From Promethearchaeota archaeon (GTDB lineage: Archaea > Asgardarchaeota > Lokiarchaeia > Sigyniarchaeales > SOKP01), in the NCBI GenBank assembly GCA_030599585.1, contig JAUVNS010000004.1, forward strand, positions 1 to 64,000: a DNA stretch of 64,000 nucleotides, given 5' to 3'. A program made the position numbers and the translations under genes. Under the pieces are notes generated by a model. That model worked only from the letters and a program-made list of their open reading frames with translations, did not search any database and was not told where the DNA came from. This document shows positions 44,980 through 51,912 of this stretch, one piece after another (position 1 is the stretch's first letter; every line of letters begins with the position of its first letter).

Positions 44980-45719
44980 TAGAAGTGGAAAAAATAAATT
45001 TTGAGTACAATTCAAGTTTTTCTCTTAACGATTTATCTTTAACCATAAAAGAAAATTCGATCTACGCTTTAACAGGGAATAACGGGTCTGGTAAAACTAC
45101 GTTTCTCAGGTTATTAGTTGGTTTACTAAAACCTAAATCTGGAACTATTAAAATTTTCAACGAACTCCTGACTAGAGATAAACAACAACTCTGGAGACTT
45201 AGACAAAAAATCGGATTTTTATTCCAAAACCCAGATGATCAATTATTTGCCCCAACTATAGGAGAGGATGTAGGTTTTGGAGCAAGAAATCTTGGACTTG
45301 AAGAGCCTGAAGTGAACAAGAGAGTTGAATGGGCGCTCGAAGCTGTTAATTTATCGCAATATACTAAAAGTTCTCCGTACGATTTATCCTGGGGACAGAA
45401 AAAACGAGCTGCTTTAGCAGGACTATTAGTAATGAAGCCTAAACTATTAATATTAGACGAACCCTTCGCAAATCTTGATTTTAAATCAATTTATAACCAC
45501 CTACAAATTTTTAAAACCCTTAAAAAAGAGCAAAAGATGACAATTTTATTTACTACTCACAATCTTTTTTTTATAGAACATTGGGCAGATAAAATGCTTG
45601 TATTAAACGATGGAAGGGCTATATTTGAAGGTCTTCCTAAGGATGGATTAAACCTTCCCAAAATCAAGCAATTATTGGGGTCGTATAACGAACTCTTAAC
45701 TCTTATCAACCAAAAGTAA
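44970..45719 (+). CDS. cbiO: ECF transporter ATPase (probable ATT start 44970; GTG 44985 in track)
   Basis: GNNGSGKT, FQNPDDQLF, LSWGQKKR and LDEP; upstream in-frame SLIE completes the first strand. Confidence 0.92.
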   Translation: MSLIEVEKINFEYNSSFSLNDLSLTIKENSIYALTGNNGSGKTTFLRLLVGLLKPKSGTIKIFNELLTRDKQQLWRLRQKIGFLFQNPDDQLFAPTIGEDVGFGARNLGLEEPEVNKRVEWALEAVNLSQYTKSSPYDLSWGQKKRAALAGLLVMKPKLLILDEPFANLDFKSIYNHLQIFKTLKKEQKMTILFTTHNLFFIEHWADKMLVLNDGRAIFEGLPKDGLNLPKIKQLLGSYNELLTLINQK

Positions 45720-45776
45720 TTTAGTTTTCCACTAAAATTGAATAAATTTTTTAATTTGTTCTTTTTATTATTACTT

Positions 45777-46093
45777 GGGAAAAACGATGATGGAACATTA
45801 GCATATTCGAGGACGTTTATGATAACCCGTGATTAAACGTGCAAAATAACTGCTTACATCCTAAGTTTATTAATCAAAACTTACTGCGTCAAAAATGGGC
45901 TCTTAATCAAGCTTTGGTATAACCTTGCGATGAGATTGGAGTCAGACCCAGCACGCAGATAGATTATGCCCCAAAAAGGCAAAGAAATTACCGCCTAACA
46001 CGAGAGAATATATTTGATGTTTATGGTATGACCATAAGATGATAAATATGTGTTAGTGTTTTAGGCAACAATACTTGCTGATTTTTTTGCCCC
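45777..46093 (+). ncRNA. Unclassified ~315-nt structured RNA candidate
   Basis: Basal stem plus five helical arms, G-U pairs favouring the + strand, TATA-like 45748-45755, U-rich 3' end, no ORF of 60 aa or more. Confidence 0.6.
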
Positions 46094-46137: not shown

Positions 46138-46617
46138 CTATAAAAGACTTATCGAATCTGAGCTGAATAGCTCTTTTAATTCTTTATTCATTTCGCTTTG
46201 ATCTTCTTGTTGAAGATAGTTATTAAGAACCGAAGCAATTTTTTGTGAGTATTTGTTCATGATTGCTCTCACGAGTCCTATTTGAATATTTTTATCGGTT
46301 GCAATACATAAGATACCCTTCCCGACTTTTAGCGAAAAGATCATCCCTTTAAAATATTCAGTTATTTGTAAATGTATCTTTCCATACCCTAAGATATATC
46401 CTTGTTCCTCGCCAGCCGTAAATACAGCTCCTCCAATCGCACCTATTTTTTCAACAGAAATGTCTTCTTCGGTAGGAGACTTTAATATGAATTTTGATTC
46501 GCTCATTATAGTTATCCCCGTATCATCTATGATTATAGCATATTTCAAGCCGGGCGTGCTATGAATAATTTCCTTAAGTATTTTCTTTAATATGCGTTCA
46601 TCATTAGAATAACTCAA
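46138..46617 (-). CDS. Roadblock/LC7 (MglB/LAMTOR-like) protein
   Basis: TPGLKYAIIIDDTGITI, IGAIGGAVF...LGYG and IQIGLVR. Confidence 0.88.
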   Translation of the reverse strand: MSYSNDERILKKILKEIIHSTPGLKYAIIIDDTGITIMSESKFILKSPTEEDISVEKIGAIGGAVFTAGEEQGYILGYGKIHLQITEYFKGMIFSLKVGKGILCIATDKNIQIGLVRAIMNKYSQKIASVLNNYLQQEDQSEMNKELKELFSSDSISLL

Positions 46618-47304: not shown

Positions 47305-48276
47305 TTATCTTTCTTTTCCTTTAATTCCCAGATCCAGATTCTCTACTAACTCGTTAAACCTATTACGAACCGTTACCTCTGTGACTTGAGACGTCTTAGC
47401 TATTGCGCGTTGCGTCCTCCTCTCCTTAGTTATGATGCTCGCGGCATAAATAGCTGCGGCACACACTCCAGTTGGACCACGTCCAGAGGTAAGACCTCTT
47501 AGTTCAGCCATCTTGATTACTTTTTTTGCTATCTTCAGACACTCAGTGGACAATTCAAGTTCTGAAACAAAGCGAGTAAGAAAATCTAAGGGTTTAGTGG
47601 GATTTAAGTTTAGTTCTAACTCCTTTGAGATAAATCGATAAGATCGCCCTATCTCTTTTTTGTTAACACGAGCAACTTCAGCAATTTCATTTAAAGTGCG
47701 TGGTACTTTATACATTCTGCATGCAGCATATAAACTTGCAGCCGCAACTCCTTCGATACTTCTCCCCCGAATTAAGTGAGCTTCAACTGCATCTCTATAA
47801 ATCTTAGCTGAACACTCGCGGAGGTTTTTCTGAAGATCGAGACTTGACGACATTCTATCTAACTCACTTAACGCAAAGGTTAAGTTTCTTTCGGTGGCAT
47901 CTGAAACTCTAATTCGGGATTGCCACTTTCGCAAACGATATATCTGTCCTCTGATTTTGGCTGAGATCTCTTTACCAAAGATATCTTTGTTCTTCCAATC
48001 AATCATAGTGCTCAAGCCTTTGTCGTGGATCATCAACGTCATAGGAGCACCAGTTCTTGTTCTTTTCTTTCTTTGATCTGAGTCAAAAGCACGCCATTCT
48101 GGACCTTGGTCTATGTGTTTTTCAGAGTGAACTAATCCACATTTTTCACAAACTAATAAGCCTCTATTTGCATCAAATAAAATATTTTTACCGCATTCAG
48201 TACAATTATCTTGACTTAACACTGTATTTTTTTCTACGGTTGCATCGCTATGATTCCAACTTGAAATAAATAACAC
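47305..48276 (-). CDS. tfb: Transcription initiation factor IIB (start GTG 48276 or ATT 48267)
   Basis: CTECG...CEKCG Zn ribbon, GPEWRAF, HDKGLST and cyclin repeats. Confidence 0.97.
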
Positions 48277-48313
48277 CTATTAATATCTTTTTATAATGGA
48301 AATTAGAGAAAAC

Positions 48314-48565
48314 TTATCTCATTTTAGCATAAAAATTGTCATTCGGGTTAAATTCCTTCTTTGGAGAAATTTTCATCGAAATGAATGGTAGTTCTTCTGG
48401 ACCAAAGATCTCTACAATTTTTCCTATCTCGTCAAATTCTTCAGTAAAAACGGGTCTATTAGTTATTTTTTCTAAACTTTTGTTCCACTTTGTCGTTCTA
48501 AAAATCTGATGTTTTTTCGATTTTCCGAGATAGAACAGATTTAATTTATTATATTTTTGCGTAAC
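48314..48565 (-). CDS. gar1: H/ACA RNP protein Gar1/Naf1 family (not in ORF track; start codon uncertain)
   Basis: Hand translation ...PVFTEEFDEIGKIVEIFGPEELPFISMK...; usual archaeal position upstream of tfb. Confidence 0.8.
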   Translation of the reverse strand, partial: VTQKYNKLNLFYLGKSKKHQIFRTTKWNKSLEKITNRPVFTEEFDEIGKIVEIFGPEELPFISMKISPKKEFNPNDNFYAKMR

Positions 48566-48743
48566 AACGACCCTAACTAATTTTAAAACTTAGAATAGTG
48601 AATTGGTGGTTAATATTTAAATATACCCTTTATTTAAAAAGGAATATTTTAGTGTATGGTTTAGCAGTAGTGAGAATTGCTAGGTTAATTTGTGCGAATA
48701 AGAATGATAGAAAAATTCTTGGTGATCATTCTGATTTTGAAAC

Positions 48744-49844
48744 CTAAATATAGCGTTTTTGAAGGTGATATTTCGCAAGACAATCGCACGAATAATCCTT
48801 ATCACGTCTTATTAAATGGTTAATGTCTTGAGTTAAAACAAAATTTCTTAAAGATTTTATCATAACTTCATTGCATTCTCTTTTTAAACAATTATGAATT
48901 CCTCGTTTAGAACCTGCGCCCGAAGGAGACGATATGATCCTCACTTCTTTTAGTATTTCTCTTTCGTGACATGCTTTGACAATGCATTTGAACAAAGAAT
49001 AGAACCAGGGAGGACGGTATCTCTTCTGATAAAATAAATACTCAATTAGTGTATTTTTTTGGATATTGAGTGGATTAATTGAAATAGTATTTACCTTTAG
49101 TTCTGCTAATTTAAAAATAGAACTAACGCAATCGTCGATAGCTGTTTGCTCATTTAGAAATGGAGGCTTAAACAGCAAGTATGCTCTCACGCCTATATCA
49201 TTTTTTTTGCAAAGACGAATCGCTTCTAAAAAATCTTTAAAAAATAAACCTTTATTTATGTAGGTATTTCTAATGTGGTCATTAACCGTTTCCAAACCGA
49301 TTGCTACTTCTATATATATGTCTAAAGAACTTCTCATTTTTATTAATTTTTCTTGGGTGATAAAATCCACTCGAGACTCTATAACGAGCTCTTTAATCTT
49401 CGGTATCTCTGTTATTTTTTTGTATATATAATCACGAGTACTTTCAGTAATTTCATCGTCATCAAAGAAGCTCCCGGAATTATAAATTTTTAACACAAAA
49501 TCTTCCTGCTCTTCAATAATCTCCGTGAATTTTTGTTGAAAGGCGTAATCAATTTGGTTTTTTATATGTGCTTGATCGATTTTTTCAAAAGTAGAATCTT
49601 GGACATATCCACACATAGAACATCCACCATCAGGACCTAGAGCCCAACTACAGCCTTTAGTTCTTAATATAATCGTGAATTCCTTTCCCTTTTTCTTTAG
49701 TAAACGATCTTCTTTTATCCAGAAGCTTATTGGTTTATCTAATTGTTTTTCATCGTATTTATGTTTCTGTTTAATAGCCTTTGATCTAAATTTCTTTATT
49801 TTTTCAACGATGAGGTTGTTATCGCTATATTTTTTCGTAGACAT
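48744..49844 (-). CDS. Archaeosine biosynthesis radical SAM protein RaSEA
   Basis: GCSWALGPDGGCSMC, KIYNSGSFFD, AYLLFKPPFL and YRPPW; overlaps arcS. Confidence 0.9.
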   Translation of the reverse strand: MSTKKYSDNNLIVEKIKKFRSKAIKQKHKYDEKQLDKPISFWIKEDRLLKKKGKEFTIILRTKGCSWALGPDGGCSMCGYVQDSTFEKIDQAHIKNQIDYAFQQKFTEIIEEQEDFVLKIYNSGSFFDDDEITESTRDYIYKKITEIPKIKELVIESRVDFITQEKLIKMRSSLDIYIEVAIGLETVNDHIRNTYINKGLFFKDFLEAIRLCKKNDIGVRAYLLFKPPFLNEQTAIDDCVSSIFKLAELKVNTISINPLNIQKNTLIEYLFYQKRYRPPWFYSLFKCIVKACHEREILKEVRIISSPSGAGSKRGIHNCLKRECNEVMIKSLRNFVLTQDINHLIRRDKDYSCDCLAKYHLQKRYI

Positions 49845-51912
49845 TTATGATTTTCCCTGTTTTTGAATTTTTTATATAATTAGATCCAACGATTAAGCTT
49901 CCTAATCCTATAATTTTTTCTTTAGTTTTATCAAAAATCACTACAACATCTTTTGGAACGAGGCTTGGACTAAAACTAACTATCCCTGGGCGAAATAAGG
50001 TATTTCCATTAATTTTTTGACCATCAAAAACAATATAATTCGAATTTTCGCTAAAAGGCAACATTCTATTTGCCCCTTTAAGATTTAATTCTATTTGTCC
50101 AGAATTAACATTAAATTTTCCAAGTTTTTCTCGAGTTAACAAGTCGCTTATTTCTATTTGATGACTTCTTTTGTTTCTCCACGTTTTAATTCCATTGTAA
50201 AATATTTTGTTGCCTGTATTAAGTCCAAATTGATAATCAATAATTTTAAAAAACTTACGAGTTAAAGTTTTTAGGAAGTTTTTATTTTCAGGAATAACAT
50301 CACCTATACTGTATGAATCTTTAAGTTCGCTTATTTTCTCCTCTAGAGAAAGCAAAGATTCATTGCTCGTAAGATTTTTCTTAACCTCAGTAAAGTAGAT
50401 TTTATTCTTTATTTTTGAACGAGCGTTTTCAATAATTTTAAAGTATCCTGAATCTTTTACGTGACACAATATAGGTATCCTCTCGTCAAACTTTTCCAAA
50501 AGGGAGATAAGCATATCTGAAGCAATAGCAATTTCTTCGTTATCCCATTCCCCGGTAACAGAAATATCATACGAATTCACGGGATATATATCTTCTAGTT
50601 GTCTTGGAATAGCCCCTAAAGGAGATGTTAAAATGATTTCTTGGAAATCAGGAAAATCACGATACTTCCTTATTACGGTATGAAATTTTTGATGAGATCT
50701 TGACTCAGAGTATGGTTTCTTCGCAGAACATGGTAGTATAATGATCAACTTTGTCCATGATTCAGGCGTGAATCTTTTAATCAATCTCTCCCGAAACCCT
50801 TGGAAATCTTGTCTATTATACGATAATGCTCCATGACAATTAATAACTTTATTTGTTTGAGTTAATGGGGTTTCATATTTCAAAATGTTGAAATATTGGT
50901 TATCAAGCACTCTCAATGTAGAAATTATATTCATGTCGTCAAATGAGGATTTTTCAATAAAACCCCGGAAATCTTCCATTCTCAGATACAATTTGATTTT
51001 ATTCATGTAAGTGAATGCTGAGATAATATTGTGAAGAGTTAGTTGTTCTGTTTTTTCAGAAGAATATTTGTCAGTTAGACTATGCTTTAAATTCCTCTTA
51101 CAAATCGTACATGGGCACGGAAAATACTTAATCTTATAAATTGGAAGTAGATATTCGATTGTATCGTAGAAATTTTCAGCAGATAAATATAATAAGTAAG
51201 AACTATCGATTAGGTCGATTCCTAAGTATACCAAGATCGGATAAAATTTCGGAATAATTCTCCCCGAAACCATTAATACTAAATTATTATCGAGCTCTTG
51301 TTTGATTTTAAATATGACTTTTAATATGTTCCTGAAATTACTAAAATTGTCAAAGATATCTACTAAATTTATTATTCTAACATTTTTATTGTTCTTAATT
51401 AGAGGAATGTATAGATCAAATAGTTCATAATAATCATAAATTTTAACAGATAAACCAAAATCTAAATTGCTATGTTGTTGTAAGATCTGATTAGATTCTT
51501 CTATAAAAATCTTAATTTCCTCTTCAGCAAATTCTTTATTTATAACTGTTGTTGGAATATTGAATGGAATGGAAGGGATAATGTTGTCTTCTGTAAAAAT
51601 GTCAATATTAGAAGTTAATATTCCCTTAAAAGATTCCATTGAACCATTATGCGTATAGATAAAGCCAGTCTTTTTAAATTTGTCTCGTAAGAATCCAATT
51701 TTCAAATAGAAGTCTTTTAAAATTAAAAAAATCTCATGATCTTCAAATTCCTCAAGAAAATTTAAATCGTTCATTAAACTTTTTTTCATCGGAATAATTA
51801 TGTTTGGGGTTGAAATAAACCTTTTAGATTCTTTCGAACAGACAATTCTGCCTATTCTTGAAAACCCTACACCTTTTGTAATTAATTCAAAAAAATAATT
51901 CATACTTTCCAA
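49825..51912 (-). CDS. arcS: Archaeosine synthase subunit alpha (TgtA2)
   Basis: TGT-like N-terminus with CPC..C, LPCSAKKPYS.SRSH, TSPLG.IPR and C-terminal PUA domain. Confidence 0.88.
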   Translation of the reverse strand: MESMNYFFELITKGVGFSRIGRIVCSKESKRFISTPNIIIPMKKSLMNDLNFLEEFEDHEIFLILKDFYLKIGFLRDKFKKTGFIYTHNGSMESFKGILTSNIDIFTEDNIIPSIPFNIPTTVINKEFAEEEIKIFIEESNQILQQHSNLDFGLSVKIYDYYELFDLYIPLIKNNKNVRIINLVDIFDNFSNFRNILKVIFKIKQELDNNLVLMVSGRIIPKFYPILVYLGIDLIDSSYLLYLSAENFYDTIEYLLPIYKIKYFPCPCTICKRNLKHSLTDKYSSEKTEQLTLHNIISAFTYMNKIKLYLRMEDFRGFIEKSSFDDMNIISTLRVLDNQYFNILKYETPLTQTNKVINCHGALSYNRQDFQGFRERLIKRFTPESWTKLIIILPCSAKKPYSESRSHQKFHTVIRKYRDFPDFQEIILTSPLGAIPRQLEDIYPVNSYDISVTGEWDNEEIAIASDMLISLLEKFDERIPILCHVKDSGYFKIIENARSKIKNKIYFTEVKKNLTSNESLLSLEEKISELKDSYSIGDVIPENKNFLKTLTRKFFKIIDYQFGLNTGNKIFYNGIKTWRNKRSHQIEISDLLTREKLGKFNVNSGQIELNLKGANRMLPFSENSNYIVFDGQKINGNTLFRPGIVSFSPSLVPKDVVVIFDKTKEKIIGLGSLIVGSNYIKNSKTGKIINVYEKI

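What the first reader, a model, noticed from the sequence alone, without database searches (positions are those of the whole stretch)
45777..46093. Unannotated ~315-nt multibranch RNA between cbiO and the roadblock gene
Seen: the 420-bp gap between convergent genes has no ORF of 60 aa or more but is dense in complementary segments. Outer GGGAAAAA/TTTTTTGCCC; basal TTAGCATATT (45798-807)/AATACTTGCTGA (46070-81). Arm 1: ACGTTTA/TAAACGT (45813-40). Arm 2: TAAGTTT/AAACTTA (45862-83). Arm 3: nested CTGCGT/ACGCAG, TGGG/CCCA and CTCTTAATC/GATTGGAG (45884-958). Arm 4: TGCC/GGCA (45967-81). Arm 5: GCCTAA/TTAGGC, ATATATTTG/TAAATATGT and TTTATGGT/ACCATAAG (45993-46066). Several G-U pairs work only on the + strand. 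A TATA-like TTTTTAAT lies about 22 nt before the first G and a U-rich tract follows. A box C-like ATGATG (45787) and box D CTGA (46078) sit at the ends, and UGAU/UGAU tandem-GA motifs occur in arms 1 and 5 (possible L7Ae sites). The segment GCATATT-CGAGG-ACGTTT...CCCG...AAACGT-GCAAAATAACT-GC echoes the bacterial tmRNA PK1/resume region, but no tRNA-like domain is present. Inference: a free-standing large ncRNA that does not match the SRP or RNase P consensus I can recall, possibly a new Asgard RNA class or an unusually long C/D-type RNA.
Basis: partly seen in the sequence, partly recalled or inferred. Interest (0 to 1): 0.82.

Follow-up and report, generated by a model that had tools for sequence, protein, structure and literature searches.

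The report
Clamped three-hairpin H/ACA guide RNA
The gap between two genes holds a real, conserved 305-base RNA gene that most likely tells the cell's pseudouridine-making enzyme which uridines to convert in the working core of the large ribosomal RNA; it is a distant copy of a known archaeal guide RNA, with extra closing helices that I found described in no paper.

Summary
The RNA is real, but it is not a new class, not tmRNA-like and not a C/D RNA. Window 45777-~46085(+) is essentially single-copy in 119 of 131 same-family genomes and is found in 14 families of the phylum. It has strong covariation and a conserved TATA box. It folds into three hairpins, each with an apical K-turn or K-loop, an internal pocket and an ACA/AUA box 15-16 nt downstream: a box H/ACA guide. 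The pockets pair with this genome's own 23S rRNA at E. coli-equivalent U2496, U2554 (rival U2586) and U1915/U1917. Distant copies hit Rfam HgcG/Pab40 (best E 4e-11, below cut-off), and our model hits HgcG-type loci of other archaea, so this is the Pab40/Pf7/Afu-4 orthologue. Cbf5, Nop10, Gar1 and L7Ae are encoded. Unlike Pab40, each ACA box lies inside an extra closing helix, and the first of these helices carries a fourth K-turn. Expression and modification were not tested. The scan has found this family before in other genomes and has read this same stretch as H/ACA in another window.

The parts
45741..45754 (+). A-rich BRE-like element plus TATA box, ending 23 nt before the first G
   Evidence: conserved in the 30-sequence alignment; function inferred
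45777..46085 (+). Three-hairpin box H/ACA guide RNA gene (HgcG/Pab40 orthologue); ends predicted, not mapped
45782..45794 (+).
   Evidence: (helices 1-2, 99-100% paired, 3 two-sided changes)
45801..45853 (+). Hairpin 1: lower stem, pocket arms 45807-12 and 45841-44, 10-layer upper stem, K-loop 45820-33; predicted target 23S U2743 (E. coli 2496)
45856..45858 (+). ACA box 1, 15 nt from the pocket; invariant in 27 homologues
45859..45868 (+). 3' strand of the basal K-turn (CUGA-like in 23 of 27 homologues; CUAA here)
45871..45876 (+). 5' strand of the helix closing hairpin 2 (pairs with 45962-66)
   Evidence: (helix 5)
45884..45958 (+). Hairpin 2: covarying lower stem, pocket arms 45894-900 and 45943-52, variant K-turn (45908-12/45927-34); predicted target 23S U2832 (E. 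coli 2554, A-loop), rival U2864 (E. coli 2586)
45959..45961 (+). ANA box 2 (AUA here; ACA, AUA or AAA in homologues)
45962..45966 (+). 3' strand of the helix closing hairpin 2
45978..45983 (+). 5' strand of the helix closing hairpin 3 (pairs with 46074-79); both strands lost together in four homologues
   Evidence: (helix 10)
45993..46066 (+). Hairpin 3: lower stem, pocket arms 46002-06 and 46052-55, upper stem with K-turn; predicted targets 23S U2171/U2173 (E. coli 1915/1917, helix 69)
46068..46070 (+). ACA box 3, 16 nt from the pocket; invariant in 27 homologues
46074..46079 (+). 3' strand of the helix closing hairpin 3; a compensatory change is present in this genome
46082..46102 (+). U-rich tract, likely terminator; sequence not conserved
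   Evidence: function inferred
44985..45719 (+). Flanking ECF-type ABC ATPase (cbiO-like); neighbour, not part of the RNA
46138..46617 (-). Flanking roadblock-like gene (weak Pfam PF08923 match, E 0.008); neighbour
48314..48538 (-). gar1, an H/ACA RNP protein gene 2.2 kb away, upstream of tfb
   Evidence: (PF04410, E 2e-6, just under the curated cut-off)

Best explanation
A separately transcribed three-motif box H/ACA guide RNA, the orthologue of Pab40/Pf7/Afu-4 (Rfam HgcG). Each hairpin binds L7Ae at its apical K-turn or K-loop and Cbf5-Nop10-Gar1 at its lower stem and ANA box. The two pocket arms pair with 23S rRNA on either side of a uridine, which Cbf5 converts to pseudouridine. Hairpin 1 targets U2496 (peptidyl transferase centre), hairpin 3 targets U1915 and probably also U1917 (helix 69), and hairpin 2 targets U2554 (A-loop) and/or U2586 (E. 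coli numbering). The three extra helices, one holding a fourth K-turn, most likely clamp each motif into a separately folding unit and protect the RNA ends. Shown here: conservation, fold, boxes, spacing, complementarity, family link and protein genes. Inferred: transcription, protein binding, modification, and the role of the clamps.
For: Covariation: 94.8% of cells paired, 20 of 64 pairs with two-sided changes, 0/500 shuffles, slid controls 35-42%. RNAalifold, given no structure, finds the hairpins and two of the three closing helices. Pocket arms are 99-100% conserved, against 74-84% for adjacent stems. In fixed registers the best site in all 16S+23S is the named one: 6+4, 7+3 and 5+4 Watson-Crick pairs, matched by 1/500, 1/300 and 1/300 shuffled guides. 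ANA boxes lie 15, 16 and 16 nt from the pockets, inside the 14-16 nt rule, and the 5' strands of the upper stems give about 10 layers to the G.A pair (rules in PMC4652768, PMC7075261). Distant copies hit HgcG at E 4e-11, 9e-6, 1.5e-4 and 7e-3. Both models hit the same loci in G157 and G252, and our model hits HgcG-type loci outside the phylum down to E 3e-14. Pab40 motif 1 modifies P. abyssi U2588 and motif 3 modifies U2016 in helix 69; motif 2 of Afu4/Pf7 was proposed for positions equal to P. abyssi 2647 or 2678 (PMC2377435). With an inferred offset of 92 these are E. coli 2496, 2555 and 2586. In family f12 the hairpin 3 arm and helix 69 change together. Cbf5 (E 6e-130), Nop10, L7Ae and Gar1 are encoded.
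Against: This locus itself is not hit by the HgcG model; the link is transitive and below the gathering score. Hairpin 2 leaves three target bases unpaired and hairpin 3 leaves five; precedents exist (Pab19, three unpaired, PMC2377435; sR-h45 SL2, four unpaired, PMC7075261), but five is beyond them. The lower stem of hairpin 1 is only 4-5 pairs here. The gap sizes used in the shuffle tests for hairpins 2 and 3 were chosen after seeing the match. Hairpin 2 prefers its own genome's helix 92 in five families but not in four others. It is untested whether Cbf5 can bind an ACA box flanked by a helix.
Confidence: 0.9

Rival explanations
1. The RNA acts mainly, or also, as a ribosome-assembly chaperone. 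It holds helix 69, the helix 89 junction and helix 92 open during large-subunit maturation, and hairpins 2 and 3 bind without modifying.
For: Hairpins 2 and 3 pair across both strands of rRNA hairpins with non-standard gaps. The arms stay invariant even where E. coli 2586 is C (G017, G019) and where 2555 is A. Yeast snR10, which guides the equivalent of U2554, has a second role in processing (PMC8307265).
Against: All the boxes and spacings needed for catalysis are kept. Hairpin 1 is a textbook guide, and the Pyrococcus motifs 1 and 3 are active in vitro (PMC2377435).
Confidence: 0.06
2. A composite C/D-H/ACA RNA: the basal K-turn is a working box C/D that recruits Nop5 and fibrillarin and guides 2'-O-methylation, as in eukaryotic composite scaRNAs or Pab21.
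For: The basal K-turn reads like box C and box D in most same-genus copies (CUGA in 23 of 27) and is kept in many families. Pab21 joins an H/ACA and a C/D motif in one transcript (PMC2377435).
Against: The bases upstream of the D-like box are the lower stem and ACA box of hairpin 1, vary at two positions and have no rRNA antisense above 6 nt. The box letters drift in distant copies while the K-turn geometry holds. There is no second C'/D' pair.
Confidence: 0.03
3. A new RNA class or a tmRNA-derived RNA.
For: No Rfam hit at this locus.
Against: Transitive and reciprocal HgcG hits; three rRNA-matching pockets; no tmRNA and no SmpB found; indels break every reading frame.
Confidence: 0.01

Closest known systems
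HgcG / Pab40 / Pf7 / Pho40 / Afu-4, three-motif box H/ACA sRNA (Rfam RF00064; PMC2377435)
   Same: Three hairpins in the same order, K-turn or K-loop caps, ANA boxes, the same pocket arms in motif 1, a related 3' arm in motif 2, the same 3' arm in motif 3, and the same predicted target regions.
   Different: Each motif sits inside an extra helix below its ANA box, and the first helix has a fourth K-turn; neither is in the Rfam consensus nor, beyond chance, in the copies from the Archaeoglobaceae-containing phylum. The 5' arm of motif 3 leaves five target bases unpaired, where most copies of that phylum use a plain UN register. The 5' arm of motif 2 fits helix 92 better than U2586. AT-rich, and not detected by the HgcG model.
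Haloferax volcanii sR-h45, stem-loop 2 (PMC7075261)
   Same: Guides both helix 69 uridines through an unpaired UNUN and needs its ACA box; hairpin 3 has the same kind of register.
   Different: sR-h45 has two stem-loops, leaves four rather than five bases unpaired, and its other target is a different site.
Yeast snR46, snR10 and snR191 (PMC8307265)
   Same: They guide 25S pseudouridines 2865, 2923 and 2258/2260, the positions equivalent to E. coli 2496, 2554 and 1915/1917 (offset taken from Um2921 = Um2552 and from the table's E. coli marks; partly from memory).
   Different: Three separate two-hairpin snoRNAs with H and ACA boxes and no K-turns. Same targets does not show descent; no sequence link was tested.
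Composite C/D-H/ACA RNAs (Pab21; vertebrate U85-type scaRNAs, layout from memory)
   Same: An H/ACA hairpin next to or enclosed by a box C/D-like K-turn.
   Different: No methylation guide sequence and no second C/D pair here.

Membership tests
Archaeal box H/ACA guide RNA | Hairpin with lower stem, internal pocket and upper stem | tested here: met
   covariation in all three hairpins
Archaeal box H/ACA guide RNA | K-turn or K-loop with tandem G.A pairs about 10 layers above the pocket | tested here: met
   read from the alignment and coordinates; hairpin 2 has a variant A.A or U.A at the second position
Archaeal box H/ACA guide RNA | ANA box 14-16 nt 3' of the pocket | tested here: met
   15, 16 and 16 nt; boxes invariant in 27 homologues
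Archaeal box H/ACA guide RNA | Bipartite complementarity around a target U in rRNA | tested here: met
   10, 10 and 9 Watson-Crick pairs at 23S U2743, U2832 and U2171; shuffles 1/500, 1/300, 1/300; gaps of hairpins 2 and 3 are non-standard
Archaeal box H/ACA guide RNA | Cbf5, Nop10, Gar1 and L7Ae encoded by the host | tested here: met
   (Gar1 and L7Ae fall just under their curated cut-offs)
Archaeal box H/ACA guide RNA | Expressed, bound by Cbf5, and directs pseudouridine formation | not testable with these tools
HgcG/Pab40 (RF00064) | Score above the Rfam gathering cut-off (77 bits) | tested here: not met
   no hit at this locus; best copies in the phylum score 50-52 bits. Filed as a divergent orthologue, not as an Rfam member
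HgcG/Pab40 (RF00064) | Three motifs in the same order with the same pocket arms and target regions | tested here: met
   P. abyssi to E. coli offset of 92 inferred, not aligned
HgcG/Pab40 (RF00064) | Significant sequence-structure similarity through intermediates, in both directions | tested here: met
   HgcG to phylum copies E 4e-13 to 7e-3; our model to outside HgcG-type loci E 3e-14 to 2e-4
Box C/D sRNA | Conserved terminal C and D boxes plus C'/D' | tested here: not met
   tail CUGA in 15 of 27; the C-like box pairs with an internal K-turn strand
Box C/D sRNA | 10-12 nt antisense guide upstream of D or D' | tested here: not met
   longest perfect match to rRNA 6 nt; tRNAs not tested
tmRNA | tRNA-like domain, tag reading frame, SmpB partner | tested here: not met
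RNase P RNA / SRP RNA | Match to the family model | tested here: not met
   no hit here; RNase P RNA lies on contig C7 and an SRP RNA match (below cut-off) on C22

The most novel reading that the evidence does not exclude
The clamps and the fourth K-turn are functional rather than merely stabilising. They build a distinct RNP in which one RNA grips helix 69, the peptidyl transferase junction and the A-loop together as an assembly scaffold, or in which the basal K-turn recruits C/D proteins, foreshadowing eukaryotic dual-function snoRNAs and composite scaRNAs.
Probability: 0.12. Interest if true: 0.75.

Novelty: new variant of a known kind. Interest (0 to 1): 0.42.

Why it matters
One RNA appears to cover sites that yeast splits among snR46, snR10 and snR191, which bears on how eukaryotic snoRNAs arose. 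The clamped layout departs from the usual picture of an ACA box in a free tail or hinge and helps explain why Rfam misses the family; our model recovers it across the phylum. The mechanism itself is well known, and the scan has reported this family several times, so the surprise is moderate.

Tried and rejected
Rfam scans of the locus and window gave nothing, and HgcG against this genome missed the locus. tmRNA, RNase P RNA, SRP RNA and C/D readings were rejected. A SECIS reading was considered and dropped: the tandem-GA cores sit in guide hairpins and the upstream gene ends at an ordinary stop. A cis-regulatory element of the cbi operon is unlikely: the RNA lies downstream, has its own TATA box, and distant copies have other neighbours (cbiO within the fetched flank in 22 of 30 close loci and in none of the distant ones). 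A 16S match of the hairpin 2 3' arm at position 319-325 was rejected because those guide bases vary among homologues. A loose pattern search in five closed genomes was at chance level, though it led to the G044 copy, which was confirmed at E 2e-11. The automatic clamp test failed to parse most hairpin 1 and 2 copies, so only its hairpin 3 result is used; hairpin 1 was retested by motif. The hairpin 1 line used an arm shifted by one base and was redone. A DNA alignment was not accepted as a genome query. Literature searches for H/ACA RNAs in Asgard archaea found nothing relevant; the library is incomplete.

Full report
Observation. The 418-bp gap between the cbiO-like gene (ends 45719) and the roadblock-like gene (ends 46138, minus strand) has no open frame above 41 codons. 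The + strand of 45777-46093 folds at z -2.83 and the minus strand at z -1.27. Rfam has no hit in the element. A DNA search finds it in 29 of 36 same-genus genomes at 69-93% identity, with matches ending near 46085. The alignment shows a conserved TATA element upstream, a conserved start at 45777 and unconserved sequence after 46082. So the element is real.

Structure. There are three hairpins (45801-853, 45884-958, 45993-46066), each with a lower stem, an internal pocket, an upper stem capped by a K-loop or K-turn, and an ANA box just 3' of it (45856, 45959, 46068). On 27 homologues the model has 94.8% of cells paired and 20 pairs with two-sided changes; 0 of 500 shuffles reach this, and slid controls give 35-42%. 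RNAalifold independently finds the three hairpins' lower stems and the helices closing hairpins 1 and 2. Arm 4 can pair but does not covary.

Targets. The pocket arms are 99-100% conserved while adjacent stems are 74-84% conserved, as expected of guides. Against this genome's own rRNAs, hairpin 1 pairs 6+4 around 23S U2743 with the standard two unpaired bases and a 15-nt spacing; 1 of 500 shuffled guides does as well. Hairpin 2 pairs 7+3 around U2832 with three unpaired bases (1/300), and hairpin 3 pairs 5+4 around U2171 with five unpaired bases that include U2173 (1/300). The gaps for hairpins 2 and 3 were chosen after seeing the match, so those two figures are optimistic. Alignment to E. coli 23S gives 2496, 2554 and 1915/1917. 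Haloferax sR-h45 modifies both helix 69 uridines through an unpaired UNUN (PMC7075261), and Pab19 works with three unpaired bases (PMC2377435). In family f12, helix 69 and the hairpin 3 arm change together.

Hairpin 2 is not settled. Its 3' arm also pairs over 8 bases (one G.U) upstream of U2864 (E. coli 2586) at a 14-nt spacing that is kept in nearly all copies, but the 5' arm then has a G.A mismatch. For U2554: the guide ranks its own genome's helix 92 first or second of eight variants in families f1, f8, f9, f17 and f18; the G042 copy is a standard two-unpaired-base guide for it; and G017 and G019 have C at 2586 yet keep the guide. Against: no such preference in f10, f12, f21 and f32. My estimate is about 0.4 for U2554 alone, 0.2 for U2586 alone, 0.3 for both and 0.1 for neither.

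Family. A covariance model of the genus alignment finds a copy, nearly always single, in 119 of 131 same-family genomes, in 4 of 14 in the next family, and in ten further families of the phylum; two more families are added through HgcG hits that our model confirms. Distant copies hit Rfam HgcG (Pab40) at E 4e-11 to 7e-3, all below the 77-bit cut-off. Our model in turn hits HgcG-type loci from other phyla at up to E 3e-14. The HgcG consensus has the same motif 1 arms. Pab40 motif 1 modifies P. abyssi U2588 and motif 3 modifies U2016 in helix 69; for motif 2 of Afu4/Pf7, positions equal to P. abyssi 2647 and 2678 were proposed (PMC2377435). An offset of 92, inferred from the paper's statement that Pab35 covers the RluE, RluC and RluB sites and from my recall of those E. 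coli positions, maps these to 2496, 2555 and 2586. The RNA is therefore best read as the Pab40/Pf7/Afu-4 orthologue. Cbf5, Nop10, L7Ae and Gar1 are all encoded, gar1 within the window. Yeast modifies the equivalent sites with snR46, snR10 and snR191 (PMC8307265).

What differs. Each ANA box sits in an internal loop closed by a further helix. The first is a complete K-turn (45782-94 with 45859-68), found in 11 of 12 same-family copies (2.0 expected by shuffling) and 13 of 21 other copies in the phylum (0.8 expected), but in 0 of 4 f10 copies and 2 of 15 copies from the Archaeoglobaceae-containing phylum (0.6 expected; one of the two was anchored on promoter sequence). The helix closing hairpin 3 passes p 0.05 in 17 of 31 copies, against 0 of 3 in f10 and 0 of 28 outside. 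In this genus it shows one compensatory change and is lost on both strands together in four genomes. In the model-fitted alignment of 40 further copies nearly all clamp pairs show two-sided changes (that alignment leans towards the structure). Similar clamps are visible by eye in three Thermoproteota copies, so they are not unique to this phylum. Reviews describe archaeal guides as one to three hairpins each followed by an ACA box, with no such helices mentioned in the passages I read (PMC7991803, PMC7075261), and my searches found no description. Because the clamps are absent in f10 and one is lost within the genus, they are not needed for guiding. The most likely role is to fold each motif separately and shield the ends, with L7Ae on the 5' K-turn; this is inference.

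Verdict. A real, widespread RNA that Rfam does not detect at this locus, working like and related to HgcG/Pab40, with a clamped layout: a new variant of a known kind. Expression and modification remain untested. I reached this reading before consulting earlier notes. They are not independent support.

Noticed in passing
L050 (G029:C17:42378-42458, minus strand): A second, partial and degenerate copy holding hairpin 3 only, about 500 nt from the full copy; its tail resembles the clamp-less clade rather than its neighbour.
   Followed up: partly
L128 and L131 (23S of G017, G019): E. coli-equivalent U2586 is C in these two genomes; their guides (L026, L029) belong to the four that have lost the helix closing hairpin 3.
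   Followed up: partly
window 48314-48538 (-) and 44985-45719 (+): gar1 has no ATG/GTG/TTG start in frame, and the cbiO-like ORF as listed starts close to its Walker A motif; earlier notes report ATT starts for such genes in relatives.
   Followed up: no
L033 (G000:C3:65805-69172): The 23S rRNA match spans 3368 nt against a 2987-position model, with an inserted hairpin just before helix 92; other genomes of the phylum carry insertions at several nearby places. Expansion segments or introns.
   Followed up: no
L073, L113, L118: Two-hairpin versions: family f31 lacks hairpin 2; family f25 has a different first hairpin plus hairpin 3, upstream of a tRNA-like gene.
   Followed up: no
L080, L081, L105, L107, L109 (family f10): Clamp-less copies, several followed closely by a tRNA gene; in some, hairpin 3 has no clear ACA box.
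   Followed up: partly
L159, L163, L167 (Thermoproteota): Two-hairpin or single-hairpin HgcG-like RNAs with long closing helices below the ACA boxes, and the same helix 69 arm as here in hairpin 3.
   Followed up: partly
L140, L141, L149 (family f12 23S): The A-loop lacks U at the E. coli 2554 position (C instead), an unusual change in a nearly universal loop.
   Followed up: no
window 47305-51912 (-): Same-strand block of a tRNA-guanine transglycosylase-like gene (named from memory and earlier notes), a radical SAM gene, gar1 and tfb, linking RNA-modification genes near the guide RNA.
   Followed up: no
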